Shown here one piece after another: positions 55,931 to 64,000 of a DNA stretch of 64,000 nt. The stretch lies in contig JBJOMY010000003.1 of NCBI GenBank assembly GCA_046052125.1, positions 160,001 through 224,000 on the forward strand, given 5' to 3'. Origin of the DNA: Cyanobacteriota bacterium (GTDB lineage Bacteria; Cyanobacteriota; Cyanobacteriia; PCC-6307; Cyanobiaceae). Under the pieces are notes generated by a model. It ran no database searches. It was given only the letters and a program-made list of their open reading frames with translations, and had not been told where the DNA came from. How positions within the stretch are numbered: the first letter of the stretch is position 1; every line of letters starts with the position of its first letter. A program made the position numbers and the translations under genes.

Positions 55931-56983
55931 TCAGCCGTTGGCCTGCGTCCGGCTGGCTAGATCCAGGGGGAACTGATGGGCATTGCGCTCGTGGATTGCC
56001 TCAATGCCGAGGTTGGCGCGGGTGAGCACATCGGCCCAGGTGGGAATCACGCGGCCCTGGTGATCGAGCACGGAGTGATTGAAGTTGAAGCCATTGAGAT
56101 TGAAGGCAAAGCTGCACACCGCCAGCGCTGAACACCAGATGCCCAGCACGGGCCAGGCCGCCAGCAACCAGTGGATGCTGCGGCTGTTGTCGCTGCTGGC
56201 ATAGGGCATGATCACGCGCCCCAGATAGGCATGCGCCGCCACCAGGTTGTAGGTGGGTTCGCGCTGGCCAAACAGGTAGCCACGGTTGATCGACTCGTCT
56301 TCGGTGGTTTCACGAATCACCGTGCTGGTCACCAGCGAGCCATGCAGCGCCGCCAGCAGTGCGCCCCCGAAGCTGCCGGCCACGGCCAGCATGTGCAGTG
56401 GGTGCATCAGCACGTTGTGCTCGGCCTGCAGCACCAGCATGAAATTGAAGGTGCCGCTGATGCCGAGGGGCATGCCATCGGAGAAGGAGCCCTGCCCCAG
56501 CGGATACACCAGCAGCACCGCCATGGCGGCGGCCCAGGGGGCTGAAAAGGCCACGGCGATCCAGGGGCGCATGCCCAACCGATAGGAGAGCTCCCATTGC
56601 CGGCCCATCCAGGCGGTGATGCCGATCAGGAAGTGGAACACCACCAGTTGATAAGGCCCGCCGTTGTAGAGCCACTCCTCAACACTGGCCGCTTCCCAGA
56701 TGGGATAAAAGTGCAGGCCGATCGCGTTAGAGCTCGGCACCACGGCAGCGCTGATCAGGTTGTTTCCCCCGAGCAGTGAACCGCTCACCGGCTCACGGAT
56801 GCCATCGAGATCCACCGGCGGTGCCGCTACGAACGCCATCAAGAACACGCAGCTGGCGGTGAGCAGGGTGGGGATCATCAGCACCCCGAACCAGCCGATG
56901 TAGAGGCGGTTGTTGGTATCGGTGATCCATGCGCTAAAGCGCCGCCAGGGATTCACCCAGGCAGCTAATCGTGTTGTTGTCAT
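55931..56983 (-). CDS. psbA: Divergent photosystem II D1 protein (D1'-like)
   Basis: [52 protein letters not shown]. Confidence 0.95.
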
Positions 56984-57253
56984 TGTTCTGTCAGTGATCA
57001 CACGCCATTGCCCTTGAGCTCTGAGTCGGCTTGAGGCGTGTGGTGAATGGTGGAGGCGAGACGCGGATGCCAGATATGGCTGTTGGTTGTCTCAGCGGGT
57101 GCGTGCTCGCCCGGATCAACCCTGATCGCTCATTCAGCTCGCTGAGCCCGTGGGATCAGCTCCGCGTTGGAAGCGCCACGGATCTGCGGCAGGTCATGCC
57201 TCGCTGCGGTGGCTGGCCCTGATTAAACCGGGAGCACCTTCCCCCCAGGCCCC

Positions 57254-57460: not shown

Positions 57461-58091
57461 TCAGGGCGAGCACTTCGCCATCGCTCACCGGCTCAAAGCG
57501 CTCATACCAAGCCCCCACCGCCCAGAGGTTGTCCACCTCCGCCAGTGCGATCAGTGCATCGAGCTCCGGTCGCAGTCGGGCTGCCACCTGGCGATCGATC
57601 ACCGGCACCGCCAGCACCAGCCGGCTGGGGTTGGCTTGCCGCAGCGATTGCAAGGCGGCCCGCACCGTGAGCCCCGTGGCCACGCCGTCATCCACCACCA
57701 ACAGGGCGCGATGGCGCAGTGACGCCAACTCCGGGTCGCCGTAGAGGCGCCGTCGTCGCTCGAGCTCGCGGCTCTGCTCGGCCACGATCCGCTCGCGCAG
57801 GGCAGCATTGAGCCCATGGGCGTTGGCCGTGGTGTCGTCCCAGATCAGCACTCCGCCCGGTGCGATCGCTCCCAGGGCCAGCTCTGGTGCCAGTGGGTGC
57901 GCCAGTTTGCGCACGGCCCAGCTCGCCAGCGGCAGCTCAAGGGCGCGCGCCACTTCGGCGGCTACCACAATGCCCCCGCGCGGTAGCCCCAGCACCAGCG
58001 CATCGGGGCTCTTCCGCCATGAGGTCAGTCGTTCGGCGAGGGCGCGGCCGGCTTGGTTGCGGTCACGCCACAGCGCGGTTCCTCGAGCCAT
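57387..58091 (-). CDS. Phosphoribosyltransferase family protein
   Basis: DR..AG..LA, LGLPRGG, VRKL, VVDDGVATG, VGAWY. Confidence 0.88.
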   Translation of the reverse strand: MARGTALWRDRNQAGRALAERLTSWRKSPDALVLGLPRGGIVVAAEVARALELPLASWAVRKLAHPLAPELALGAIAPGGVLIWDDTTANAHGLNAALRERIVAEQSRELERRRRLYGDPELASLRHRALLVVDDGVATGLTVRAALQSLRQANPSRLVLAVPVIDRQVAARLRPELDALIALAEVDNLWAVGAWYERFEPVSDGEVLALITAGSADPASSGATTHRKERSSRL

Positions 58092-60834
58092 GGCGATGGG
58101 TCCTCCAGAGGGTGCGGAGCTGATCGGCAAGCAGTGGTGCCGGAATGCACAGCAGCAACCACCACCACAACTGTGATGGGATCGGCGCCATCTGGAAGGT
58201 GCGGGCCAGGGGCGGCCAGCCCTGCAGCAGGGCGAAGGCCAGTAGCTCCGTGGCGATGCCGAGCAGCAGCAGGGCGTTGGGGCGTTGCTGGATTCGCCCG
58301 CGGCAGGCCAGGGCCGTGCCCACCTGGGCCGCAACGATTGAGCCCAGGGCCACGGCAGAGGCCTGCTGCTGAACAGCGATCACGGCCGCGGAGGCGTGGT
58401 GGTGCAGCAGATCTGCCGCCAGAGACCGGAGACCCACCAGGTTCACCCCCTCGCGCCACCAGGTGAGCCCGTAGCCGCTCATGGCGAGGACCCCCTCGAT
58501 CAGGCCAAAGAACAGATAGGCCTCCTGGAGCAGCGCGCGATCCAGCAGTGGTTGGTCGCGATGGCGCGGTGGCCGGTTCATCACCTCCGGCTGGGCTGGC
58601 TCGGCCCCCAGGCCCAGGGCCGGCAGCAGATCGGTGCCCAGATCGATCGCCAGGATCTGCAGCACGGTGAGGGCTGCCGGGATTCCCAGCAGCAGCATGG
58701 TGAGGAACGGCGCCACCTCCGCCACGTTCGAGGCGAGGATGTAGAGGATGAAGCGGCGGATGTTGTCGTACACGCCGCGGCCGTGCCGCACCGCCGAGAC
58801 GATCGTGGCGAAGTTGTCGTCCACCAGCACGATGTCGGCTGCTTCGCGGGCCACATCCGTGCCGCTTTTGCCCATGGCGATGCCTACATCAGCGGCCCTC
58901 AGCGCCGGGGCGTCGTTCACGCCATCGCCGGTCACGGCCACCACTTCGCCGAGTGCCCGGTAGGCGTGCACCAGCCGCAGCTTCTGCTCCGGTGCCATGC
59001 GGGCAAACACCAAGCGGGAGCGGTATTTCAGGAGCTGGCGCAGCTGAGCATCACTGAGCCGCTGCAGGTCGCTGCCGTTGATCACCCGCACGGGGTCGTG
59101 GTCGGCATGGGCCGGCGCCTCCAACAGTCCGATCTGCCGCGCGATCGCCTCAGCAGTGAGGCCGTAGTCGCCGGTCACCATCGTGACCTTGATGCCGGCG
59201 CGGTGGCAGGCAGCGATCGCTTTGCTCACGCCGGGCCGCGGCGGATCCACCAGGCCCACCAGGCCCAGCAACACCAGCTGCTGCTCCTCCAACTCCTGCC
59301 GCTGCCCGGGCCTGCAGGCGATCGCCAGCACCCGATACCCCTGGCGGGCCATCACATCGTTGGCCTCACTCACCAGCTGCCGCTCAGCCGGCCCCAGCGG
59401 CACCACCGTGCCGGCGCGCCACCAGTGGCTGCAGCGCTCCAGCAGCTCCAGCGGCGCACCCTTGCTGCCCACCATCCAGCTGCAGGGTTCTGGCCAGCGG
59501 TGATCGCCTTGCCAGTGCAGCAGCACGCTCATCAACCGCCGCTCGGAATCGAAGGGCAGCTCCTGCAGCCGGGGCAGTCGCTTGCGCTCCTGGTCCAGCT
59601 CCAGGCCGGCGCGCTGAGCGCCCTGGAGCAGCGCCGTTTCTGTGGGATCGCCAACCTCAAGGGAGGCGTTGCAGCACAGGGCAGCGATCAACAGCAGCAG
59701 CTGTTGATCGTCTCCCCAGATGCTCTGCAGCGTCATGGCGTTGGCCGTGAGCGTGCCGGTTTTGTCGGTGCAGATCACACTCACACAGCCGAGCGTTTCC
59801 ACCGCCGAAAGCCGCCGCACCAGAGCCCGCTCCCGGGCCATCCTCTTCACCGCCAGCGCCAGCGCCAGGGTGACGGTGGGGAGCAGACCCTCCGGCACAT
59901 TGGCCACGATGATGCCGATCGAGAACACCAGGCTCTCGAGCGGCTTCACGCCGACTAGCAGCACGCCGCCGAGGAAGGCCAGCGCTCCCATGCCAACGGC
60001 GATGCCGGTGATGGTGCGCACGATCCGCCCCACCTGCACCTCCAAGGTGCTGGCACCGCGTTCAACGCCGGCACTGAGATGCGCCACCTGGGCGAACTCC
60101 GTGTCGGATCCAGTGGCGTACACCAGCGCCTGCGCCCGGCCGGCCACCACGGTGGTGCCGGCTGGTAGCAAGTTGGCTGTGTCCGATGGATTGCCCCGCG
60201 GCGGCTGGCTGGTGGCCGTGCGTGCCACCGGCAACGCCTCCCCGGTGAGCACGGCGGCATTGAGCGACAGCTCCACCGCCTCGATCACCCGGCAGTCGGC
60301 CGGCACTTGATCGCCCGCCTCCAGCTCCAGTAAATCCCCCGGCACCAGGGTTTCCACCGGTAGGAGCTGCAGGGAGCCATCGCGCCAGACCCGCACCTGC
60401 CGAGGCAACACGTTGGTGAGGGCCGCGAGGGTGCGTTCGGCCTGAAAGTCCTGCCAGAAGCTGAATACTGCATTGATCAGCACCACGCTCCAGATCGCCC
60501 AGCCGAGTTCGGGTGTGCCGGCGAGAAAGGCCATCGTTCCCGCCACCCACAGCAGCAGAGCCATGAAGTGGGTGAGCTGATCGCTGAAGCGCAGAAGGAG
60601 GGGCCGTCGCCGCTGCGGCGGGAGCTGATTGGCTCCGAATCGCTCCAGCCGGATCGCGGCCTGGGCACTGCTCAAGCCTTGGGCGCTGCTTTCAAGGGCA
60701 CGAAGGGCTGTTGCTTGGTCGAGGCTGCAGATCGGCGGCGAAGCAGTGAGTGGCACAACACCGGTTCCTGGCTGTGGTTGCTGACTAGCGCCTTTGCGGA
60801 GGCCTGTCGCGTCTTCATCGTGAATGGGCTGCAA
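58063..60834 (-). CDS. Cation-transporting P-type ATPase (P2C, Na+/K+-ATPase-like)
   Basis: IGIIVANVPEGLLPTVT, CTDKTGTLT, KGAP, TGDGVNDAPAL, SNVAE, ILAIDLGTD; start uncertain. Confidence 0.9.
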   Translation of the reverse strand: MQPIHDEDATGLRKGASQQPQPGTGVVPLTASPPICSLDQATALRALESSAQGLSSAQAAIRLERFGANQLPPQRRRPLLLRFSDQLTHFMALLLWVAGTMAFLAGTPELGWAIWSVVLINAVFSFWQDFQAERTLAALTNVLPRQVRVWRDGSLQLLPVETLVPGDLLELEAGDQVPADCRVIEAVELSLNAAVLTGEALPVARTATSQPPRGNPSDTANLLPAGTTVVAGRAQALVYATGSDTEFAQVAHLSAGVERGASTLEVQVGRIVRTITGIAVGMGALAFLGGVLLVGVKPLESLVFSIGIIVANVPEGLLPTVTLALALAVKRMARERALVRRLSAVETLGCVSVICTDKTGTLTANAMTLQSIWGDDQQLLLLIAALCCNASLEVGDPTETALLQGAQRAGLELDQERKRLPRLQELPFDSERRLMSVLLHWQGDHRWPEPCSWMVGSKGAPLELLERCSHWWRAGTVVPLGPAERQLVSEANDVMARQGYRVLAIACRPGQRQELEEQQLVLLGLVGLVDPPRPGVSKAIAACHRAGIKVTMVTGDYGLTAEAIARQIGLLEAPAHADHDPVRVINGSDLQRLSDAQLRQLLKYRSRLVFARMAPEQKLRLVHAYRALGEVVAVTGDGVNDAPALRAADVGIAMGKSGTDVAREAADIVLVDDNFATIVSAVRHGRGVYDNIRRFILYILASNVAEVAPFLTMLLLGIPAALTVLQILAIDLGTDLLPALGLGAEPAQPEVMNRPPRHRDQPLLDRALLQEAYLFFGLIEGVLAMSGYGLTWWREGVNLVGLRSLAADLLHHHASAAVIAVQQQASAVALGSIVAAQVGTALACRGRIQQRPNALLLLGIATELLAFALLQGWPPLARTFQMAPIPSQLWWWLLLCIPAPLLADQLRTLWRTHRHGSRNRAVA

Positions 60835-60966
60835 TCAGAGCCGCAAGCGCTGTTGATCCTTGCGGGGTTCTAGAACGCAAGCGTTGGATCCCTAAGACAC
60901 GCACAGGGTTGGCTCAGTGCCTTGGCGTTGCTGCAACTGAAAAGAACGCACTGGGGCAACGGGCGC

Positions 60967-62064
60967 ATGCAGCGCTACGGCCTGGTTGCCGCCATGGTGT
61001 TGGTGGGTGGCGTATTGGTGCGCTTGGTGCACGGTGTTGTTGCTCCGGCGCAAGTGGATGACGCGCGCCTGGTCGTGCCATCCAGCCCCTTGGTGCCGGC
61101 TACGGAGCTTGTGGTAGCCCAGGAGCATGGCCGCCTGGGTCATCTCTATGTGCGTGAAGGGGCTGCAGTCGCTCCCGGACAGGCCCTGTTTTCGTTGAAG
61201 CGCGATCTCGAGATCGAACAGGATCTGGTGGATCGAGGGTTGGCGCGCGACATCACAGAAGTGAATGCTCAGATTCGCGAGTCGCGCCGGGCTCTTGATT
61301 CCTTGGCTGAGCGTTTGGTGCTCACTCGACCTGTGGCGAATCCGCAGTTTGAGCAGCAGATCGCCCTCGCTAGGCAGCGTTTGGATCGGCGCATCACGCT
61401 CTGGCTATCCGGTGGCCTGAGTCGCGATTTTGTGGATGAAGGTGAGGAGCGTCTGCTGCGTTTGAAGCGCGATGCCGCTCAGTGGCGGGAGGATCGCCAG
61501 AAGTTGGTGAGCTTGCAGCAGCTCATTCGGCAGCAGAACGCCCGCTTGGACGGGTTGTTGCAGCAGCAGACACAACTGCGCAGCAGCGATCTGCAACGGC
61601 GCGCCGAGGCGCGCGTGCATCCACCACTTCAATTCAACGAGCAGAGTCATCTCGCTTACGCCACTTATCGCGCTCCTGCTCGCGGCACGGTGCTGCGGCT
61701 GCTGAAGCAGCCCGGCGAGGCTGTGAAACCTCGCGAAGCGGTAGCGATTGTGCAGAAGGATCTGCCGCCTCCGGTGGTGGAGGCCAGGGTTCCGTGGTCG
61801 GGTCAGTGGTTCTTGATGCCTGATCAGGAAGCAAGAGTGGAGATCCCCTCGCTCCGCCAGCGCTACGACGCCCAAGCCGTTGCCGTTGATCATGGTGGAG
61901 ATGGTTGGCAGCGCGTGCGGCTGGCGTTGAAAGGGGTTCCAGCCACCGAGATGAGGCGTTTGCTGGCCTTGCCTGGAGAGCCGGTGCGCTTGACCATTCC
62001 CCAGGAGCATCTACTGGTGCGCTGGTTGCGTACACGGGAGCTGAAGGCCTGGGCCTCACCGTGA
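60967..62064 (+). CDS. HlyD/membrane-fusion-protein-like secretion protein
   Basis: N-terminal TM; split lipoyl-like halves (G.LGHLYVREG..V..GQ.L and APARGTV...GE.V) around a long coiled coil; TTG 60922 is an alternative start. Confidence 0.72.
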   Translation: MQRYGLVAAMVLVGGVLVRLVHGVVAPAQVDDARLVVPSSPLVPATELVVAQEHGRLGHLYVREGAAVAPGQALFSLKRDLEIEQDLVDRGLARDITEVNAQIRESRRALDSLAERLVLTRPVANPQFEQQIALARQRLDRRITLWLSGGLSRDFVDEGEERLLRLKRDAAQWREDRQKLVSLQQLIRQQNARLDGLLQQQTQLRSSDLQRRAEARVHPPLQFNEQSHLAYATYRAPARGTVLRLLKQPGEAVKPREAVAIVQKDLPPPVVEARVPWSGQWFLMPDQEARVEIPSLRQRYDAQAVAVDHGGDGWQRVRLALKGVPATEMRRLLALPGEPVRLTIPQEHLLVRWLRTRELKAWASP

Positions 62065-62726
62065 TGCTTGCCCTGGCGTTCGTGGTGATTCCCCATCTGC
62101 TCTGGGCCCAGCGGCTGGTTGCTGATCTGCGACCGGAACACAACAGCTATGGGCGCAATCCCTCTCTGGTGGTGTGGCGTGGTGTGGATGGAGCGCCGAT
62201 CAGCCGCAACCGCAGTGATTGCTCCAGCTTCATCACCGCGTTATGGAGCCGTGCCTACGGCTATGGCTCAGATCAGATGCGCCAGTGGCTTGGGGTTGCG
62301 GCACCGCGAGCACGCGACTATCACGACGCCATCGTGAAGGGCAATCGGTTTCAACGGATTGAGCGGATTGTCGATCTGCAGTCAGGTGATCTCCTGGCCA
62401 CGCGCTATCAGCGCAGCCGCTCTGATGCCACCGGGCACGTGATGTTGGCGGCGTCGCGGCCGACGGCTGTGGGTGTTTGTTCTGGGGTTTTGTGCGTGTT
62501 TCGGCTGCAGGTGATTGATTCATCCCGCAGCGGTCATGGACCACTCGATACCCGGCAAGGCAAGGCCGGCGTTGGCGAGGGTGTGATTCGGCTGCAGACC
62601 ACTCGAGATGGTCGTTTGCAGGGGTACCGCTGGAGTGAACGAGGCAGCTCCCGCTGGCGCTTGGCACCAGAGGAATCGCTGGTGGTGGGGCGGTTTATTG
62701 GGCCAGTGTCCAGAGCTGGTGGGTGA
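62064..62726 (+). CDS. Putative secreted NlpC/P60-like cysteine hydrolase
   Basis: SY..., SDCSSFI, LQSGDLL, TGHVML; start overlaps the upstream stop (GTGATG). Confidence 0.6.
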   Translation: MLALAFVVIPHLLWAQRLVADLRPEHNSYGRNPSLVVWRGVDGAPISRNRSDCSSFITALWSRAYGYGSDQMRQWLGVAAPRARDYHDAIVKGNRFQRIERIVDLQSGDLLATRYQRSRSDATGHVMLAASRPTAVGVCSGVLCVFRLQVIDSSRSGHGPLDTRQGKAGVGEGVIRLQTTRDGRLQGYRWSERGSSRWRLAPEESLVVGRFIGPVSRAGG

Positions 62727-63687
62727 TGAACAGTGCGCCCATGGCAGAGCTGATCATCACCAGCATCCAGGGGAGGACCTGTTTTCGCCCGTACAGCACC
62801 ACATCGTTGGCGTAGGAGAGGATCGCGATCACCACGAGGATGTGGTTGCCCTGAAAGGGCAATGCGTCCATCCCGAGCTGAATGAACAGCACCTCCACGC
62901 TCCACACAAAGGCAATGCTCAGGAGCAGCGCCACCACATAGCGATTGAGCCCCACGATCAGGCTGCGCGCACTGATGGCGTGAACCAGTTGCTCCACGCT
63001 CAGGCATCCCACCACAAACATGGCGGCACTGAGGGGTTCCAACAGCAGGGCGGCGGCCATTGGGGCAACCACGTAACCACCCGGGCGCTGGTGGGTGCGC
63101 TTGTAGATCGCCATGCCCACCAGGAGTGCGATGAGGAACTGAATCGACTTGGCATGCAGCTGAATGCTGCTCACATGCCTGTAGTACTGGTTGAGTTCGT
63201 TGAAGTCGATTCGAAAGAGAGCGCTGCCGATCACCACAATGGTGAGGGTGAAGAGCAGGGTGCCTGTGGTCACCACCAGCATTCCCTTGCTCACCGGCCG
63301 CCAGCTTTGGCGATGCAGGTTGAAGGCGATCACAGCTGGTAAGAGGCTGCCAGTGATGCCATCGAGGCTTCCCGCAATCACGCCGAGCTGAAGGGCAGCG
63401 AGGGCCAGGGGGGGGCTGATGAGTAAGGACAGCACGCCAAGGATGTACATCGGCCGCCGCCGTTGATGCTGGAGCCGCTCAAACCAACGCTGATAGATCC
63501 ACTGGATCAGGTAGGCCATTGCAATCACGGCCAGGCACCAGAGCGGTGAGACCAGAAATAGGTTGGTGAGGATCCCGGGAACAATGATTCCGCCGGGGGT
63601 GATGCCATTGCGCTGCTGCCAGAACAAGGCCAGCAGGCTCCCGATCGCCAGGCTGAAACGCTGAATCTCCGGTGTGATCAGCTCCAT
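62695..63687 (-). CDS. capC: Poly-gamma-glutamate synthesis PgsC/CapC-like protein, internally duplicated
   Basis: NGITPGGIIVPG...LLPAVIAFNLHRQ; second repeat HQRPGGYVVAP...IVGLNRY...SYAND. Confidence 0.75.
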   Translation of the reverse strand: MELITPEIQRFSLAIGSLLALFWQQRNGITPGGIIVPGILTNLFLVSPLWCLAVIAMAYLIQWIYQRWFERLQHQRRRPMYILGVLSLLISPPLALAALQLGVIAGSLDGITGSLLPAVIAFNLHRQSWRPVSKGMLVVTTGTLLFTLTIVVIGSALFRIDFNELNQYYRHVSSIQLHAKSIQFLIALLVGMAIYKRTHQRPGGYVVAPMAAALLLEPLSAAMFVVGCLSVEQLVHAISARSLIVGLNRYVVALLLSIAFVWSVEVLFIQLGMDALPFQGNHILVVIAILSYANDVVLYGRKQVLPWMLVMISSAMGALFITHQLWTLAQ

Positions 63688-64000
63688 GCCAGTTGTTGGT
63701 TGATGGCATCCATCAAGCGGCTGGCTTGGGGGGTATGGATGTTCACAGCGCCAATCAGCACGGCTGAGCTCTCTCGATCGATCACGCCGCTGATGGTGTT
63801 GAGCAGGGTTGCTCCGCTGGCGTCCCTGAATCGGCTTCCGTTACCGCAATGAATCAGCCGGCAGGGCTTGCGCGTTGCAATCTCGCTCACTTCTTTTTCG
63901 TAGTCACCAAAGGTGAACACGGTGCTGAAGTTCAGTTGCAGTGCGAGTTCGGTGAACAGATGAACGCGGCTTTGCCGGTCGTGGCGATTGTTGAGAATCA
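63678..64000 (-). CDS. capB: Poly-gamma-glutamate synthetase PgsB/CapB-like, C-terminal part (starts beyond the window)
   Basis: Manual translation ILNNRHDRQSR...VLIGAVNIH matches PgsB N-x-R-x-DR-x-x-R and G-x-x-NIH; overlaps the capC start. Confidence 0.7.
   Translation of the reverse strand, partial: ILNNRHDRQSRVHLFTELALQLNFSTVFTFGDYEKEVSEIATRKPCRLIHCGNGSRFRDASGATLLNTISGVIDRESSAVLIGAVNIHTPQASRLMDAINQQLAWS

What the first reader, a model, noticed from the sequence alone, without database searches (positions are those of the whole stretch)
60967..64000. Putative poly-gamma-glutamate (PGA) system in a picocyanobacterium
Seen: a CapB/PgsB-like C-terminus (NNRHDRQSR, GAVNIH) overlaps the start of a CapC/PgsC-like gene. 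Both converge on a coupled HlyD-like gene and a Cys-His hydrolase gene. Known: CapBC/PgsBC form the PGA synthetase core, best studied in Bacillus. Inference: this cyanobacterium may make and export a glutamate polymer (capsule, slime, N sink or defence). I know of no characterised PGA system in picocyanobacteria.
Basis: partly seen in the sequence, partly recalled or inferred. Interest (0 to 1): 0.82.

Follow-up and report, generated by a model that had tools for sequence, protein, structure and literature searches.

The report
Picocyanobacterial polyglutamate synthesis and export cassette
A freshwater picocyanobacterium carries a conserved five-gene block that looks like the Bacillus machinery for making the slime polymer poly-gamma-glutamate, rebuilt for a two-membrane cell with a doubled membrane subunit, a periplasmic adaptor and its own gamma-glutamyl-type hydrolase.

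Summary
The truncated ORF at the window end is a full 398-aa PgsB. It scores 319.5 bits against TIGR04012, whose equivalog cut-off is 222.7. Its stop overlaps the start of a 330-aa membrane protein made of two tandem CapC/PgsC domains. A divergently transcribed 685-aa PgsA/CapA-like lipoprotein lies just outside the window. Converging on these are a HlyD-family adaptor and a translationally coupled divergent NlpC/P60 cysteine hydrolase, the fold of the Bacillus PGA hydrolase PgdS.

All five genes stay together in 12 of 12 related loci that are long enough to show them. They are under purifying selection (dN/dS 0.12-0.28). They form a clean 6.5-kb presence/absence block between the same flanking genes in a congener.

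PgsB is patchy: 14 of 400 other genomes of the family, and no intact copy in 371 other cyanobacteria sampled. In a second, more distant lineage a HlyD-family gene again sits in the pgsB-pgsC2 operon, in different gene orders.

Best reading: a diderm-adapted PGA synthesis, export and trimming system. The product is untested. NCBI's pipeline already names relatives PgsC/CapC. This scan noted a related cyanobacterial cluster before. I found no paper on it.

The parts
60922..62064 (+). HlyD-family membrane-fusion (periplasmic adaptor)-like protein, 380 aa from the TTG at 60922 (365 aa from the ATG at 60967). It has one N-terminal hydrophobic helix at residues 22-40.
   Evidence: PF13437 HlyD_3 24.5 bits (cut-off 22.2). 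TIGR02971 DevB family 37.2 bits, below its cut-off of 129. Hydropathy. Present directly upstream of the hydrolase gene in 12 of 12 related loci. dN/dS 0.115 against G021.
62064..62726 (+). Divergent single-domain NlpC/P60-fold cysteine hydrolase, 220 aa. Its ATG shares one base with the HlyD stop codon. It is the candidate gamma-glutamyl (PGA) hydrolase or processing enzyme.
   Evidence: The protein itself has no Pfam or PDB sequence hit, but 13 of 35 aligned relatives hit PF00877. AlphaFold2 model pLDDT 92.9. By VIA-align, ranks 1-26 (all with Z of 8 or more, best 10.9, rmsd 3.4, 128 residues aligned) are nearly all entries titled NlpC/P60, CHAP, DL-endopeptidase, endolysin or autolysin. C53, H125 and the IDSSRSGHG..DTR block are invariant in 35 sequences.
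62695..63687 (-). PgsC2: 330-aa integral membrane protein made of two tandem CapC/PgsC domains, with at least 7 hydrophobic segments.
   Evidence: Each half passes PF14102 on its own (N half 53.4 bits, C half 38.4 bits, cut-off 27). The whole protein scores 39.8 bits against TIGR04011, below the cut-off of 96.45. Both halves keep a PGG motif. Only 59 clusters match in 1.84 billion representatives, most of them full-length matches in proteins of 317-375 aa.
63678..64000 (-). 3' end of pgsB. The whole gene is G000:C3:223678-224874 = L002:5678-6874, 398 aa, and runs 874 nt beyond the window. The divergent pgsA-like gene (L002:7053-9110, 685 aa) lies wholly outside the window.
   Evidence: PgsB: TIGR04012 319.5 bits against a cut-off of 222.7, plus PF08245 Mur_ligase_M. 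PgsA-like: PF09587 PGA_cap 150.2 bits at residues 102-371, CarboxypepD_reg at 25-85, and a conserved Cys after a hydrophobic leader (LTAC). Its C-terminal 255 residues model as a beta-sandwich resembling polymer-binding modules (pLDDT 77.8; Z 10-12.3).

Best explanation
The locus is a five-gene, horizontally mobile cassette for making, exporting and trimming poly-gamma-glutamate (PGA) in a two-membrane cell. PgsB, a Mur-ligase-type ATP-dependent amide ligase, polymerises glutamate at the inner membrane together with PgsC2. PgsC2 is a single polypeptide that carries two CapC domains. This step is inferred from family membership. A periplasmic lipoprotein, PgsA-like, takes over the nascent chain. 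It combines the CapA metallophosphatase-like domain with an Arg-rich polymer-binding-like beta-sandwich. This step is inferred. The HlyD-family adaptor, anchored in the inner membrane, links the synthase to the outer envelope, possibly to one of the genome's TolC-like channels, so that the polyanion crosses the periplasm and outer membrane. This step is inferred from conserved linkage only. The coupled NlpC/P60 hydrolase plays the role that PgdS plays in Bacillus: it cuts gamma-glutamyl bonds to release or size the polymer, or it opens or uses peptidoglycan for passage or anchoring. This step is inferred from fold, catalytic residues and linkage.
For: Gene identity:
- PgsB exceeds the equivalog cut-off.
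- There are two CapC domains.
- The PGA_cap domain keeps its GDxxxGRRF, NLE, NNH, HGGNEY and NHHxH motifs in 15 sequences.
- The hydrolase has an NlpC/P60 fold with invariant Cys and His.
- The adaptor passes HlyD_3.

Linkage:
- All five genes occur together in 12 of 12 related genome loci with enough sequence. These span 28-81% HlyD identity. Only the two closest loci share the window's flanking genes (none of the other six loci searched matched them), and in L026/L027 the HlyD-hydrolase pair has moved as a unit to the other side of pgsA.
- The cassette is a clean 6.5-kb indel between a P-type ATPase gene and a CMAS-type methyltransferase gene, relative to the complete same-genus genome G008.
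- dN/dS is 0.115-0.28 for all five genes against G021.
- In metagenome contigs PgsB lies next to the double CapC in 34 of 34 loci.
- In a second lineage (PgsC2 38-44% identical) a 573-595-aa HlyD-family protein (HlyD_3 25.5-34.4 bits, cut-off 22.2) sits on the same strand as pgsB-pgsC2 in three different orders.

Precedent from papers (passages read):
- PgsB and PgsC form the catalytic site, and PgsA removes and transports the chain; pgdS lies directly downstream of pgsBCA (PMC4928254).
- PgdS has been suggested to release chains from the synthase (PMC4497714).
- PgdS is an NlpC/P60 enzyme with a Cys-His-Gln triad (PMC5880399).

Other:
- Four TolC/OEP genes exist elsewhere in the genome.
- Weak hint of expression: contigs of four metatranscriptome runs hold pieces of 151-464 nt, at least 95% alike, from all five genes. 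The tool warns that DNA can be present in such libraries.
Against: - No product was measured.
- PgsC2 fails the strict PgsC equivalog cut-off (39.8 bits against 96.45), and its two halves are not detectably similar to each other by BLASTP (E 0.16).
- PgsA-like has no NCBIfam equivalog hit.
- The hydrolase itself hits no Pfam model.
- Its wider family occurs in many phyla with no pgs genes nearby: 43 of 52 genome loci had none by tblastn at E of 1e-3 or better, and 13 of the 14 loci whose neighbours were scanned against Pfam had unrelated neighbours. Its ancestral substrate is therefore probably not PGA.
- In this clade the hydrolase has only a very short hydrophobic N-terminus rather than the clear signal peptide of its relatives, so its export is uncertain.
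- The HlyD hits are marginal, and no ABC, RND or MFS pump or outer-membrane gene lies in the cassette.
- The most distant double-CapC loci (22-29% identity, 12 loci) showed no HlyD or NlpC with my profiles.
- No PgsE/CapE was evident, and the GGT gene is unlinked.
Confidence: 0.62

Rival explanations
1. The pgsB-pgsC2-pgsA core makes PGA, but the polymer stays attached as a capsule rather than being released. The NlpC/P60 enzyme acts as a transpeptidase or acyl-transferase that anchors chains to peptidoglycan, in the role that CapD has in B. anthracis. The HlyD-like protein is a coiled-coil scaffold or regulator of that enzyme, not an export adaptor.
For: The hydrolase and HlyD genes are translationally coupled here (one-base overlap), lie 50 nt or less apart in 12 of 12 loci, and move together. 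No pump or outer-membrane gene lies in the cassette. NlpC/P60 enzymes normally act on the gamma-D-Glu bond of peptidoglycan stem peptides, as the titles of the structural matches show. That coiled-coil proteins regulate NlpC/P60, CHAP or LytM hydrolases (FtsEX-RipC, PcsB, EnvC) is recalled; entries 8idc and 4cgk appear among the matches.
Against: In the second lineage the HlyD-family gene sits in the pgsB-pgsC2 operon without any detectable NlpC gene (8 loci). HlyD is therefore linked to the synthase itself and not only to the hydrolase.
Confidence: 0.17
2. The ligase makes a different gamma-glutamyl product, such as a short oligo-gamma-glutamate, a mixed amino-acid polyamide, or a glutamyl modification of an envelope component, rather than a high-molecular-weight PGA capsule or slime.
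For: PgsC2, PgsA-like and the accessory genes all depart from the characterised Bacillus system. PGA_cap-family proteins can have other roles: the family includes the peptide epimerase MslH (NF038314 weak hits; PMC8179263, search listing and start of abstract only). CapBCA-like loci in some Gram-negative bacteria have no demonstrated PGA (recalled, not checked here).
Against: PgsB passes a model built as an equivalog for PGA synthase by about 97 bits. The whole PgsB-C-A trio is present and co-conserved.
Confidence: 0.13
3. The cassette is a recently acquired passenger that is silent or decaying, and the HlyD and hydrolase genes are unrelated hitch-hikers.
For: Distribution is patchy (2 of 24 congeners; 14 of 400 family members). 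GC is lower (0.57-0.62) than in the left flank (0.66-0.69). One other cyanobacterium carries only a PgsB fragment with four stop codons (G708).
Against: All five ORFs are intact in 13 of 13 loci. dN/dS is 0.115-0.28. Catalytic motifs are invariant. Linkage is kept across at least 6 genera and across rearrangements. Pieces occur in four metatranscriptome runs (weak).
Confidence: 0.05

Closest known systems
Bacillus subtilis PgsBCA(E) poly-gamma-glutamate synthase with the downstream PgdS (YwtD) hydrolase
   Same: There is a PgsB ligase above the equivalog cut-off, overlapping and co-transcribed with a CapC-domain membrane protein. A PGA_cap (PgsA/CapA) protein is present. An NlpC/P60-fold Cys-His hydrolase is encoded beside the synthase genes (passages of PMC4928254 and PMC5880399).
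   Different: PgsC is a fused tandem of two CapC domains (330 aa against about 149 aa). PgsA is divergently transcribed, carries a lipoprotein-type leader, an N-terminal CarboxypepD_reg domain and a 255-residue polymer-binding-like C-terminal domain (685 aa). The hydrolase has one divergent NlpC/P60 domain instead of three and is not detectably PgdS-like in sequence. A HlyD-family adaptor is part of the unit. No PgsE is evident. The host is a diderm phototroph.
Bacillus anthracis CapBCADE capsule system
   Same: It shares the CapB/CapC/CapA-type core. A further enzyme acting on gamma-glutamyl bonds is encoded with the synthase.
   Different: That enzyme in B. anthracis is CapD, a GGT-family transpeptidase. 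In this genome the only GGT gene lies on another contig, and the linked enzyme has the NlpC/P60 fold. No CapE is evident.
PGA systems of Gram-negative bacteria: PGA production by Fusobacterium nucleatum (Candela 2009, seen only as a citation in PMC4928254 and PMC4497714), and the pgsB-pgsC-pgsW three-gene cassette (TIGR04332), a lead from earlier scan notes
   Same: These also place PgsB/PgsC-type genes in two-membrane bacteria, where the polymer must cross the periplasm and outer membrane.
   Different: No TIGR04332 match was found in this genome. The control genomes did not ring either, so this is inconclusive. The accessory genes here are a HlyD-family adaptor and an NlpC/P60 hydrolase.
Tripartite MFP-dependent exporters, e.g. 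DevBCA-HgdD/TolC of cyanobacteria and MacAB-TolC
   Same: The adaptor has a single-pass N-terminal anchor plus HlyD_3 and lipoyl-like elements. Its best NCBIfam hit is the DevB family. TolC-like genes are present in the genome.
   Different: All scores are below the NCBIfam cut-offs. No ABC, RND or MFS pump gene is adjacent. The only membrane partners encoded nearby are PgsC2, PgsB and the PgsA lipoprotein.
Cyanobacterial fused-PgsC cluster noted earlier in this scan (e1-3138719)
   Same: That note also describes a doubled PgsC, a PgsB and a long multi-domain CapA in a cyanobacterium, and its authors found no paper on it either.
   Different: It concerned a marine filamentous cyanobacterium and a four-gene block with a pentapeptide-repeat partner. 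This locus is in a picocyanobacterium and carries a HlyD adaptor plus an NlpC/P60 hydrolase. I did not see its sequence, and my sequence look-up found no overlap.

Membership tests
PgsB / CapB poly-gamma-glutamate synthase (TIGR04012) | Score above the curated equivalog cut-off over the full length | tested here: met
   319.5 bits against a cut-off of 222.7, residues 9-383 on model positions 6-373 of 380. 319.2 bits in the genome search.
PgsB / CapB poly-gamma-glutamate synthase (TIGR04012) | Mur-ligase ATP-binding P-loop (GxxGKS/T) and central Mur_ligase_M domain | tested here: met
   HVNGIRGKSTTTR at residues 37-49, of which 12 of 13 positions are invariant in 12 cyanobacterial PgsB sequences. 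PF08245 49.8 bits.
PgsB / CapB poly-gamma-glutamate synthase (TIGR04012) | ATP-dependent polymerisation of glutamate through gamma-amide bonds | not testable with these tools
   This needs an enzyme assay or product analysis.
PgsC / CapC (PF14102; TIGR04011) | CapC domain above Pfam's gathering score | tested here: met
   76.4 bits for the whole protein. 53.4 bits (residues 1-159) and 38.4 bits (residues 160-330) when each half is scanned alone; cut-off 27.
PgsC / CapC (PF14102; TIGR04011) | Score above the PgsC equivalog cut-off, and the single-domain size of about 150 aa | tested here: not met
   TIGR04011 39.8 bits against a cut-off of 96.45. The protein is 330 aa with two domains. Single 148-149-aa forms match it only at E of about 1e-4.
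PgsC / CapC (PF14102; TIGR04011) | Encoded next to and co-oriented with pgsB | tested here: met
   10-nt overlap with the pgsB stop in this genome. PgsB lies adjacent in 34 of 34 metagenome loci that carry a double CapC.
PgsA / CapA (PF09587 PGA_cap) | PGA_cap domain above the gathering score, with its metallophosphatase-like motifs | tested here: met
   150.2 bits against a cut-off of 27, residues 102-371. D107, N156, E158, N207, H209, H313-G-G-x-E-Y and H344-H345 are invariant in 15 sequences.
PgsA / CapA (PF09587 PGA_cap) | Same architecture as Bacillus PgsA (N-terminal membrane anchor plus the PGA_cap domain only) and the same operon position | tested here: not met
   The protein has a lipoprotein-type leader (LTAC), an extra CarboxypepD_reg domain and a 255-residue beta-sandwich, is 685 aa long and is divergently transcribed.
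PgdS-type gamma-PGA hydrolase (NlpC/P60, PF00877) | NlpC/P60 papain-like fold | tested here: met
   Model pLDDT 92.9. By VIA-align the best Z is 10.9 (rmsd 3.4, 128 residues aligned), and ranks 1-26 are nearly all entries titled NlpC/P60, CHAP, DL-endopeptidase, endolysin or autolysin. Foldseek alone gave only E of 0.035 or worse.
PgdS-type gamma-PGA hydrolase (NlpC/P60, PF00877) | Catalytic Cys-His-(Gln/Asn/His) triad | tested here: inconclusive
   C53 (in a DCS motif, as in the Asp-Cys-Ser of PgdS domain 2 described in PMC5880399) and H125 are invariant in 35 sequences. The third residue was not assigned. Candidates lie in the invariant block D152/S154/S156/H158.
PgdS-type gamma-PGA hydrolase (NlpC/P60, PF00877) | Sequence membership of PF00877, and three tandem NlpC/P60 domains as in PgdS | tested here: not met
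   This protein has no Pfam hit, although 13 of 35 relatives hit PF00877 (best E 8.5e-7). It has a single domain of 220 aa.
PgdS-type gamma-PGA hydrolase (NlpC/P60, PF00877) | Hydrolysis of gamma-glutamyl bonds of PGA | not testable with these tools
   This needs an enzyme assay on PGA and on muropeptides.
HlyD / membrane-fusion protein family | HlyD-family domain above the Pfam gathering score, and an N-terminal membrane anchor | tested here: met
   PF13437 24.5 bits against a cut-off of 22.2 (marginal). One hydrophobic helix at residues 22-40. Homologues in the second lineage score 25.5-34.4 bits.
HlyD / membrane-fusion protein family | Membership of a curated adaptor subfamily (DevB, RND_mfp, EmrA, type I HlyD) | tested here: not met
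   The best hit is TIGR02971 (DevB) at 37.2 bits against a cut-off of 129. All other subfamily models are also far below their cut-offs.
HlyD / membrane-fusion protein family | Encoded with an ABC, RND or MFS pump and working with a TolC-like channel | tested here: not met
   No pump gene lies in the cassette. Four OEP/TolC genes exist, but on other contigs or at distant sites.
Gram-negative pgsB-pgsC-pgsW cassette (TIGR04332) | Presence of the third gene (gamma_Glu_sys protein) | tested here: inconclusive
   No match in the own genome, but no control genome rang either. The NCBIfam scans of the cassette proteins scanned (all but the trimmed 220-aa hydrolase, which was scanned as the 273-aa ORF) gave no TIGR04332 hit.

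The most novel reading that the evidence does not exclude
The cassette encodes a new type of trans-envelope secretion machine. In it a polymer synthase (PgsB plus a fused PgsC pseudo-dimer) takes the place of the usual ABC, RND or MFS pump as the inner-membrane partner of a HlyD-family adaptor and a TolC-like channel. The polyamide would then be synthesised and threaded across both membranes in one step, with a lipoprotein PgsA as polymer guide and a dedicated NlpC/P60 enzyme cutting it free. Some freshwater picocyanobacteria would thereby gain a polyanionic glutamate coat, for example against grazers or phages, for metal binding or as a nitrogen store.
Probability: 0.3. Interest if true: 0.8.

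Novelty: new variant of a known kind. Interest (0 to 1): 0.62.

Why it matters
PGA is known mainly from Bacillus and a few other organisms. How a two-membrane cell would export such a long polyanion is not described in the papers I could search. This cassette offers a compact, co-inherited gene set with which to test that: a synthase, a fused membrane subunit, a lipoprotein with a polymer-binding-like domain, an adaptor and a hydrolase.

It would also add an unrecognised extracellular or cell-surface polymer to freshwater and estuarine picocyanobacteria. That could bear on aggregation, grazing and phage resistance, metal binding and nitrogen budgets. Because only a few percent of related genomes carry it, it is a natural presence/absence experiment. 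The fused double PgsC also gives a hint about the stoichiometry of the still structurally unsolved PgsBCA complex: the only PDB sequence match of PgsB was a FolC.

Tried and rejected
- Complex prediction of HlyD (residues 16-380) with the hydrolase gave score 0.00 in both runs, so no verdict either way.
- Foldseek of the hydrolase model against the PDB gave nothing at E of 0.001 or better. VIA-align was needed.
- Sequence searches of the hydrolase and of its 35-sequence profile against PDB chains found nothing.
- BLASTP between the two halves of PgsC2 found no significant similarity. The duplication rests on the two Pfam hits.
- I looked for mobile-element signatures around the 6.5-kb block. 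There were no convincing flanking direct or inverted repeats, no integrase or transposase among the ORFs and no sigma-70-like promoter match.
- I looked for PgsE/CapE. A 44-codon hydrophobic ORF in the pgsB-pgsA spacer (L002:6892-7026) is not conserved beyond a 17-residue stretch in the two closest relatives, so I rejected it.
- The second CapA-like gene 7.3 kb downstream (L002:16445-17554) was considered as part of the system. I rejected it because G008, which lacks the cassette, has a 70% identical orthologue.
- I asked whether the hydrolase family is generally pgs-linked. It is not: 43 of 52 genome loci had no pgs genes nearby.
- A metagenome scan with a 19-sequence double-CapC alignment was not possible because no stretch was conserved enough. 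It was rerun with 6 sequences.
- RNA contigs cannot show strand, transcript ends or expression level. Parts of the stretch without cover (for example L002:7294-7935) mean nothing.
- I did not build a PgsB tree with named outgroups, so the donor lineage is unknown.

Full report
**1. Observation**

- A minus-strand frame is open at the window end (63678..63998). It contains NNRHDRQSR and GAVNIH.
- Its stop overlaps by 10 nt the ATG (63687) of a 330-aa minus-strand hydrophobic protein (62695-63687).
- On the plus strand there is a 380-aa ORF (60922-62064, with an internal ATG at 60967).
- The TGA of that ORF shares its last base with the ATG (62064) of a 220-aa ORF ending at 62726 (DNA read).
- The two pairs converge and overlap by 32 nt.

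The window is G000:C3:160001-224000. I fetched C3:218001-236000 as L002, so window position = L002 position + 58000.

**2. What the genes are**

*PgsB.* The truncated ORF extends to a 398-aa protein (L002:5678-6874).
- It scores 319.5 bits on the equivalog model TIGR04012 (cut-off 222.7). It is far below the cut-offs for FolC, the Mur ligases and cyanophycin synthetase.
- It has Mur_ligase_M.
- It has the P-loop HVNGIRGKSTTTR, of which 12 of 13 positions are invariant in 12 cyanobacterial homologues.
- Its only PDB match by sequence was a FolC at E 2.7e-6.

*PgsC2.* The 330-aa membrane protein has CapC (PF14102) at 76.4 bits.
- Scanned as halves, both pass the cut-off of 27 (53.4 and 38.4 bits). 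Both keep a PGG motif.
- It fails the strict PgsC equivalog (39.8 bits against 96.45).
- The halves are too diverged for BLASTP.
- Hydropathy gives at least 7 hydrophobic segments.

*PgsA-like.* A 685-aa protein is transcribed divergently 178 nt upstream of pgsB (L002:7053-9110).
- It has a hydrophobic leader ending in LTAC, and a Cys at that place in most relatives.
- It has a CarboxypepD_reg domain (residues 25-85) and PGA_cap (150.2 bits, residues 102-371) with invariant metallophosphatase-like motifs.
- Its last 255 residues have no Pfam hit. They model (pLDDT 77.8) as a beta-sandwich.
- The best structural matches of that domain are a phage tailspike domain, a hyaluronan-binding module and carbohydrate-binding modules (Z 10-12.3, about 120-135 residues aligned).
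- The domain carries many invariant arginines.
- A shared fold is not a function, but an Arg-rich polymer-binding-like module fits a polyanion.

*HlyD-like.* The 380-aa protein just passes HlyD_3 (24.5 bits against 22.2). Its best NCBIfam hit is the DevB adaptor family, well below cut-off. It has one N-terminal hydrophobic helix.

*Cys-His protein.* The 220-aa protein has no Pfam, NCBIfam or PDB sequence hit.
- It has 111 homologues. One is named an NlpC-family hydrolase by JGI, and several carry PF00877.
- In a 35-sequence alignment, C53 (DCS), H125 (TGHVM) and an IDSSRSGHG..DTR block are invariant.
- 13 of the 35 hit PF00877.
- The AlphaFold2 model is confident (pLDDT 92.9).
- Foldseek gave only weak NlpC/P60 and CHAP rows.
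- VIA-align against 48,161 chains put NlpC/P60, CHAP, DL-endopeptidase and endolysin/autolysin entries in nearly all of ranks 1-26 (Z 8.1-10.9).
- It is therefore a divergent single-domain NlpC/P60-fold enzyme.

**3. Is it one system?**

*Related genome loci.* I fetched 18-kb regions around nine PgsB hits in relatives.
- Eight of the nine hold all five genes. The ninth (L023) is a 7.2-kb contig that ends inside pgsC2.
- Four more loci came from the hydrolase-based genome scan (L031-L033 and L054).
- This makes 12 of 12 loci with enough sequence that carry the whole set.
- HlyD identity to ours ranges from 28 to 81%.
- Only the two closest relatives share the window's flanking genes. None of the other six loci searched matched them.
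- In L026 and L027 the HlyD-hydrolase pair has moved, as a pair, to the far side of pgsA.
- HlyD lies 50 nt or less upstream of the hydrolase gene in 12 of 12 loci (starts chosen by alignment).

*Indel in a congener.* The complete same-genus genome G008 lacks PgsB. Its orthologous P-type ATPase (78%) and CMAS-type methyltransferase (84%) genes are 370 nt apart. By blastn the collinear blocks end at L002:2653 and restart at L002:9134. The cassette is thus a clean 6.5-kb indel. No repeats or mobility genes mark its ends. GC is 0.57-0.62 in the core against 0.66-0.69 to the left.

*Selection.* dN/dS against G021 is 0.115 (HlyD), 0.28 (hydrolase), 0.15 (PgsC2), 0.16 (PgsB) and 0.18 (PgsA).

**4. 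Wider context of the parts**

*PgsC2 in a large protein library.* It matches only 59 clusters among 1.84 billion representatives. Most are full-length matches in proteins of 317-375 aa. Ordinary 148-149-aa PgsC appears only at E of about 1e-4. Named members are cyanobacterial (Synechococcus MAGs, Halothece, Okeania, a Microcoleaceae MAG) and one Deinococcota MAG. NCBI labels all of them PgsC/CapC.

*Metagenome scan.* A scan with six double-CapC sequences returned 60 loci. I searched their stop-to-stop ORFs with profiles built from my own alignments.
- 34 loci carry a double CapC, and PgsB lies next to it in 34 of 34.
- 13 of the 34 have a HlyD-like ORF.
- 9 of the 34 have the hydrolase, all within the close group (47% identity or more).
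- In a second group (38-44% identity, 8 loci) a 573-595-aa protein that passes HlyD_3 (25.5-34.4 bits) lies on the same strand as pgsB-pgsC2. It occurs in three orders: pgsB-pgsC2-hlyD-pgsA' (L094), pgsB-pgsC2-orf347-hlyD (L096) and hlyD-pgsB-pgsC2-orf349 (L100).
- I take this as the strongest evidence that the adaptor works with the synthase.
- A third group (22-29% identity, 12 loci) has pgsC2-pgsB, sometimes with a 421-aa PGA_cap protein, and no HlyD or hydrolase detectable with my profiles.

*The hydrolase family in other phyla.* The family is widespread (52 genome loci; Planctomycetota, Acidobacteriota, Proteobacteria and others).
- Outside picocyanobacteria its neighbours are unrelated.
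- The exception is a Methylococcaceae MAG (L040). There it lies beside an 860-aa PgsA-like protein of the same architecture and a 1386-aa protein with a PgsB-like domain (182.5 bits, below cut-off).
- The hydrolase was therefore probably recruited to the PGA system rather than born in it.

**5. Distribution**

| Sample searched with TIGR04012 | Result |
|---|---|
| Other genomes of the genus | 2 of 24 above cut-off |
| Other genomes of the family | 14 of 400 above cut-off; with G000, 6 of 64 genera |
| Even draw of the phylum | 0 of 29 family members; among 371 genomes of other families, only one 81-bit fragment with four stops (G708) |

- These are samples, so the right wording is 'not found in those searched'.
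- The named Halothece, Okeania and Microcoleaceae proteins show that the system exists elsewhere in the phylum.
- The genus is Vulcanococcus, going by the record title of the contig that equals G021:C18.
- DNA of the locus is held by freshwater, estuarine and one marine metagenome run.

**6. Expression**

Contigs of four metatranscriptome runs hold 26 pieces in all (24 listed, 151-464 nt, at least 95% alike) that fall in all five genes and in the pgsB-pgsA spacer. The tool warns that RNA libraries can hold DNA and that contigs give no strand or level. I count this only as a weak hint.

**7. Mechanism**

*Shown by computation.* Family and fold assignments, conserved catalytic motifs, co-inheritance, purifying selection.

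*Inferred.*
- PgsB plus PgsC2 polymerise glutamate. In passages of PMC4928254, PgsB and PgsC form the catalytic site and PgsA removes and transports the chain.
- The lipoprotein PgsA-like handles the chain in the periplasm.
- The adaptor bridges to the outer envelope. Four TolC/OEP genes lie elsewhere in the genome.
- The NlpC/P60 enzyme cuts gamma-glutamyl bonds as PgdS does. In Bacillus, PgdS is encoded directly downstream of pgsBCA, is an NlpC/P60 enzyme with a Cys-His-Gln triad, and has been suggested to release chains (passages of PMC4928254, PMC5880399 and PMC4497714).

*Rivals.* The alternatives are capsule anchoring with HlyD as a hydrolase scaffold, a different gamma-glutamyl product, and a silent passenger. 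They are weighed in their own section.

*Open weaknesses.*
- There are no product data.
- The HlyD scores are marginal, and no pump gene is present.
- The hydrolase has an unusually short N-terminal leader in this clade.
- PgsE is not evident, and GGT is unlinked.
- No TIGR04332 (pgsW-type) match was found, though that search had no positive control.

**8. Novelty**

- Four literature searches aimed at PGA in cyanobacteria or picocyanobacteria found nothing relevant. The papers listed there were on Bacillus, soil viruses or unrelated 'Cap' terms. Three further searches served the background on PgsBCA distribution, PgsA/MslH and PgdS. The library lacks most subscription journals.
- NCBI's pipeline already names relatives PgsC/CapC.
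- Earlier notes of this scan describe a related cyanobacterial fused-PgsC cluster and other diderm PGA cassettes on other DNA. I used those notes as leads only.
- I therefore class this as a new variant of a known kind.
- The known part is the PgsBCA-type PGA synthase. The new part is a fused PgsC, a multi-domain lipoprotein PgsA, and a linked HlyD adaptor and NlpC/P60 hydrolase in picocyanobacteria.

Noticed in passing
L040:2863-10919 (Methylococcaceae MAG contig): The same hydrolase family lies beside an 860-aa CarboxypepD_reg+PGA_cap protein and a 1386-aa protein. Residues 737-1062 of the latter match PgsB (182.5 bits, below cut-off); the rest has no Pfam hit. This may be a giant fused PGA-synthase-like protein in a gammaproteobacterium.
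   Followed up: partly
L096:9031-10074 and L100:4444-5493: In the second double-CapC lineage an ORF of 347-349 aa with no Pfam hit directly follows pgsC2. It may be a further conserved component, or a very divergent PgsA.
   Followed up: no
L002:16445-17554 (G000:C3:234445-235554, outside the window): This is a second, leaderless PGA_cap protein (369 aa, 234 bits) with a weak hit to the peptide epimerase MslH model. It has a 70% identical orthologue in G008, which lacks the cassette, so it is independent of the pgs genes.
   Followed up: partly
L024, L028, L054 (pgsB-pgsA spacer): In one genus the divergent pgsB-pgsA spacer is 1.0-1.2 kb instead of about 180 nt, which leaves room for an extra gene or element. 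I did not examine it.
   Followed up: no
L030 and L034 (record titles): Two contigs that are picocyanobacterial by gene content and by GTDB placement (they equal G007:C1 and G131:C3) carry record titles naming Asaia bogorensis and Chitinophaga pinensis. These look like mislabelled MAG records.
   Followed up: no
L019 (G708:C142:8689-8988): A cyanobacterium of another family holds only a 100-residue PgsB-like fragment (81 bits) interrupted by 3 TAG and 1 TAA codons. It looks like a decayed remnant.
   Followed up: no
window 55931-57001 (-) and 58063-60834 (-): Upstream of the cassette lie a 356-aa ORF that reads like a photosystem II D1 (psbA) protein (recognised by eye, not tested) and a 923-aa P-type cation ATPase (E1-E2_ATPase, Cation_ATPase_C).
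   Followed up: partly
L047:9662-12929: In a Planctomycetaceae MAG the hydrolase homologue lies next to a Peptidase_M50-like protein and a HlyD_3 protein (40.3 bits). This is a second, pgs-free case of the hydrolase family lying near a HlyD-family gene.
   Followed up: no
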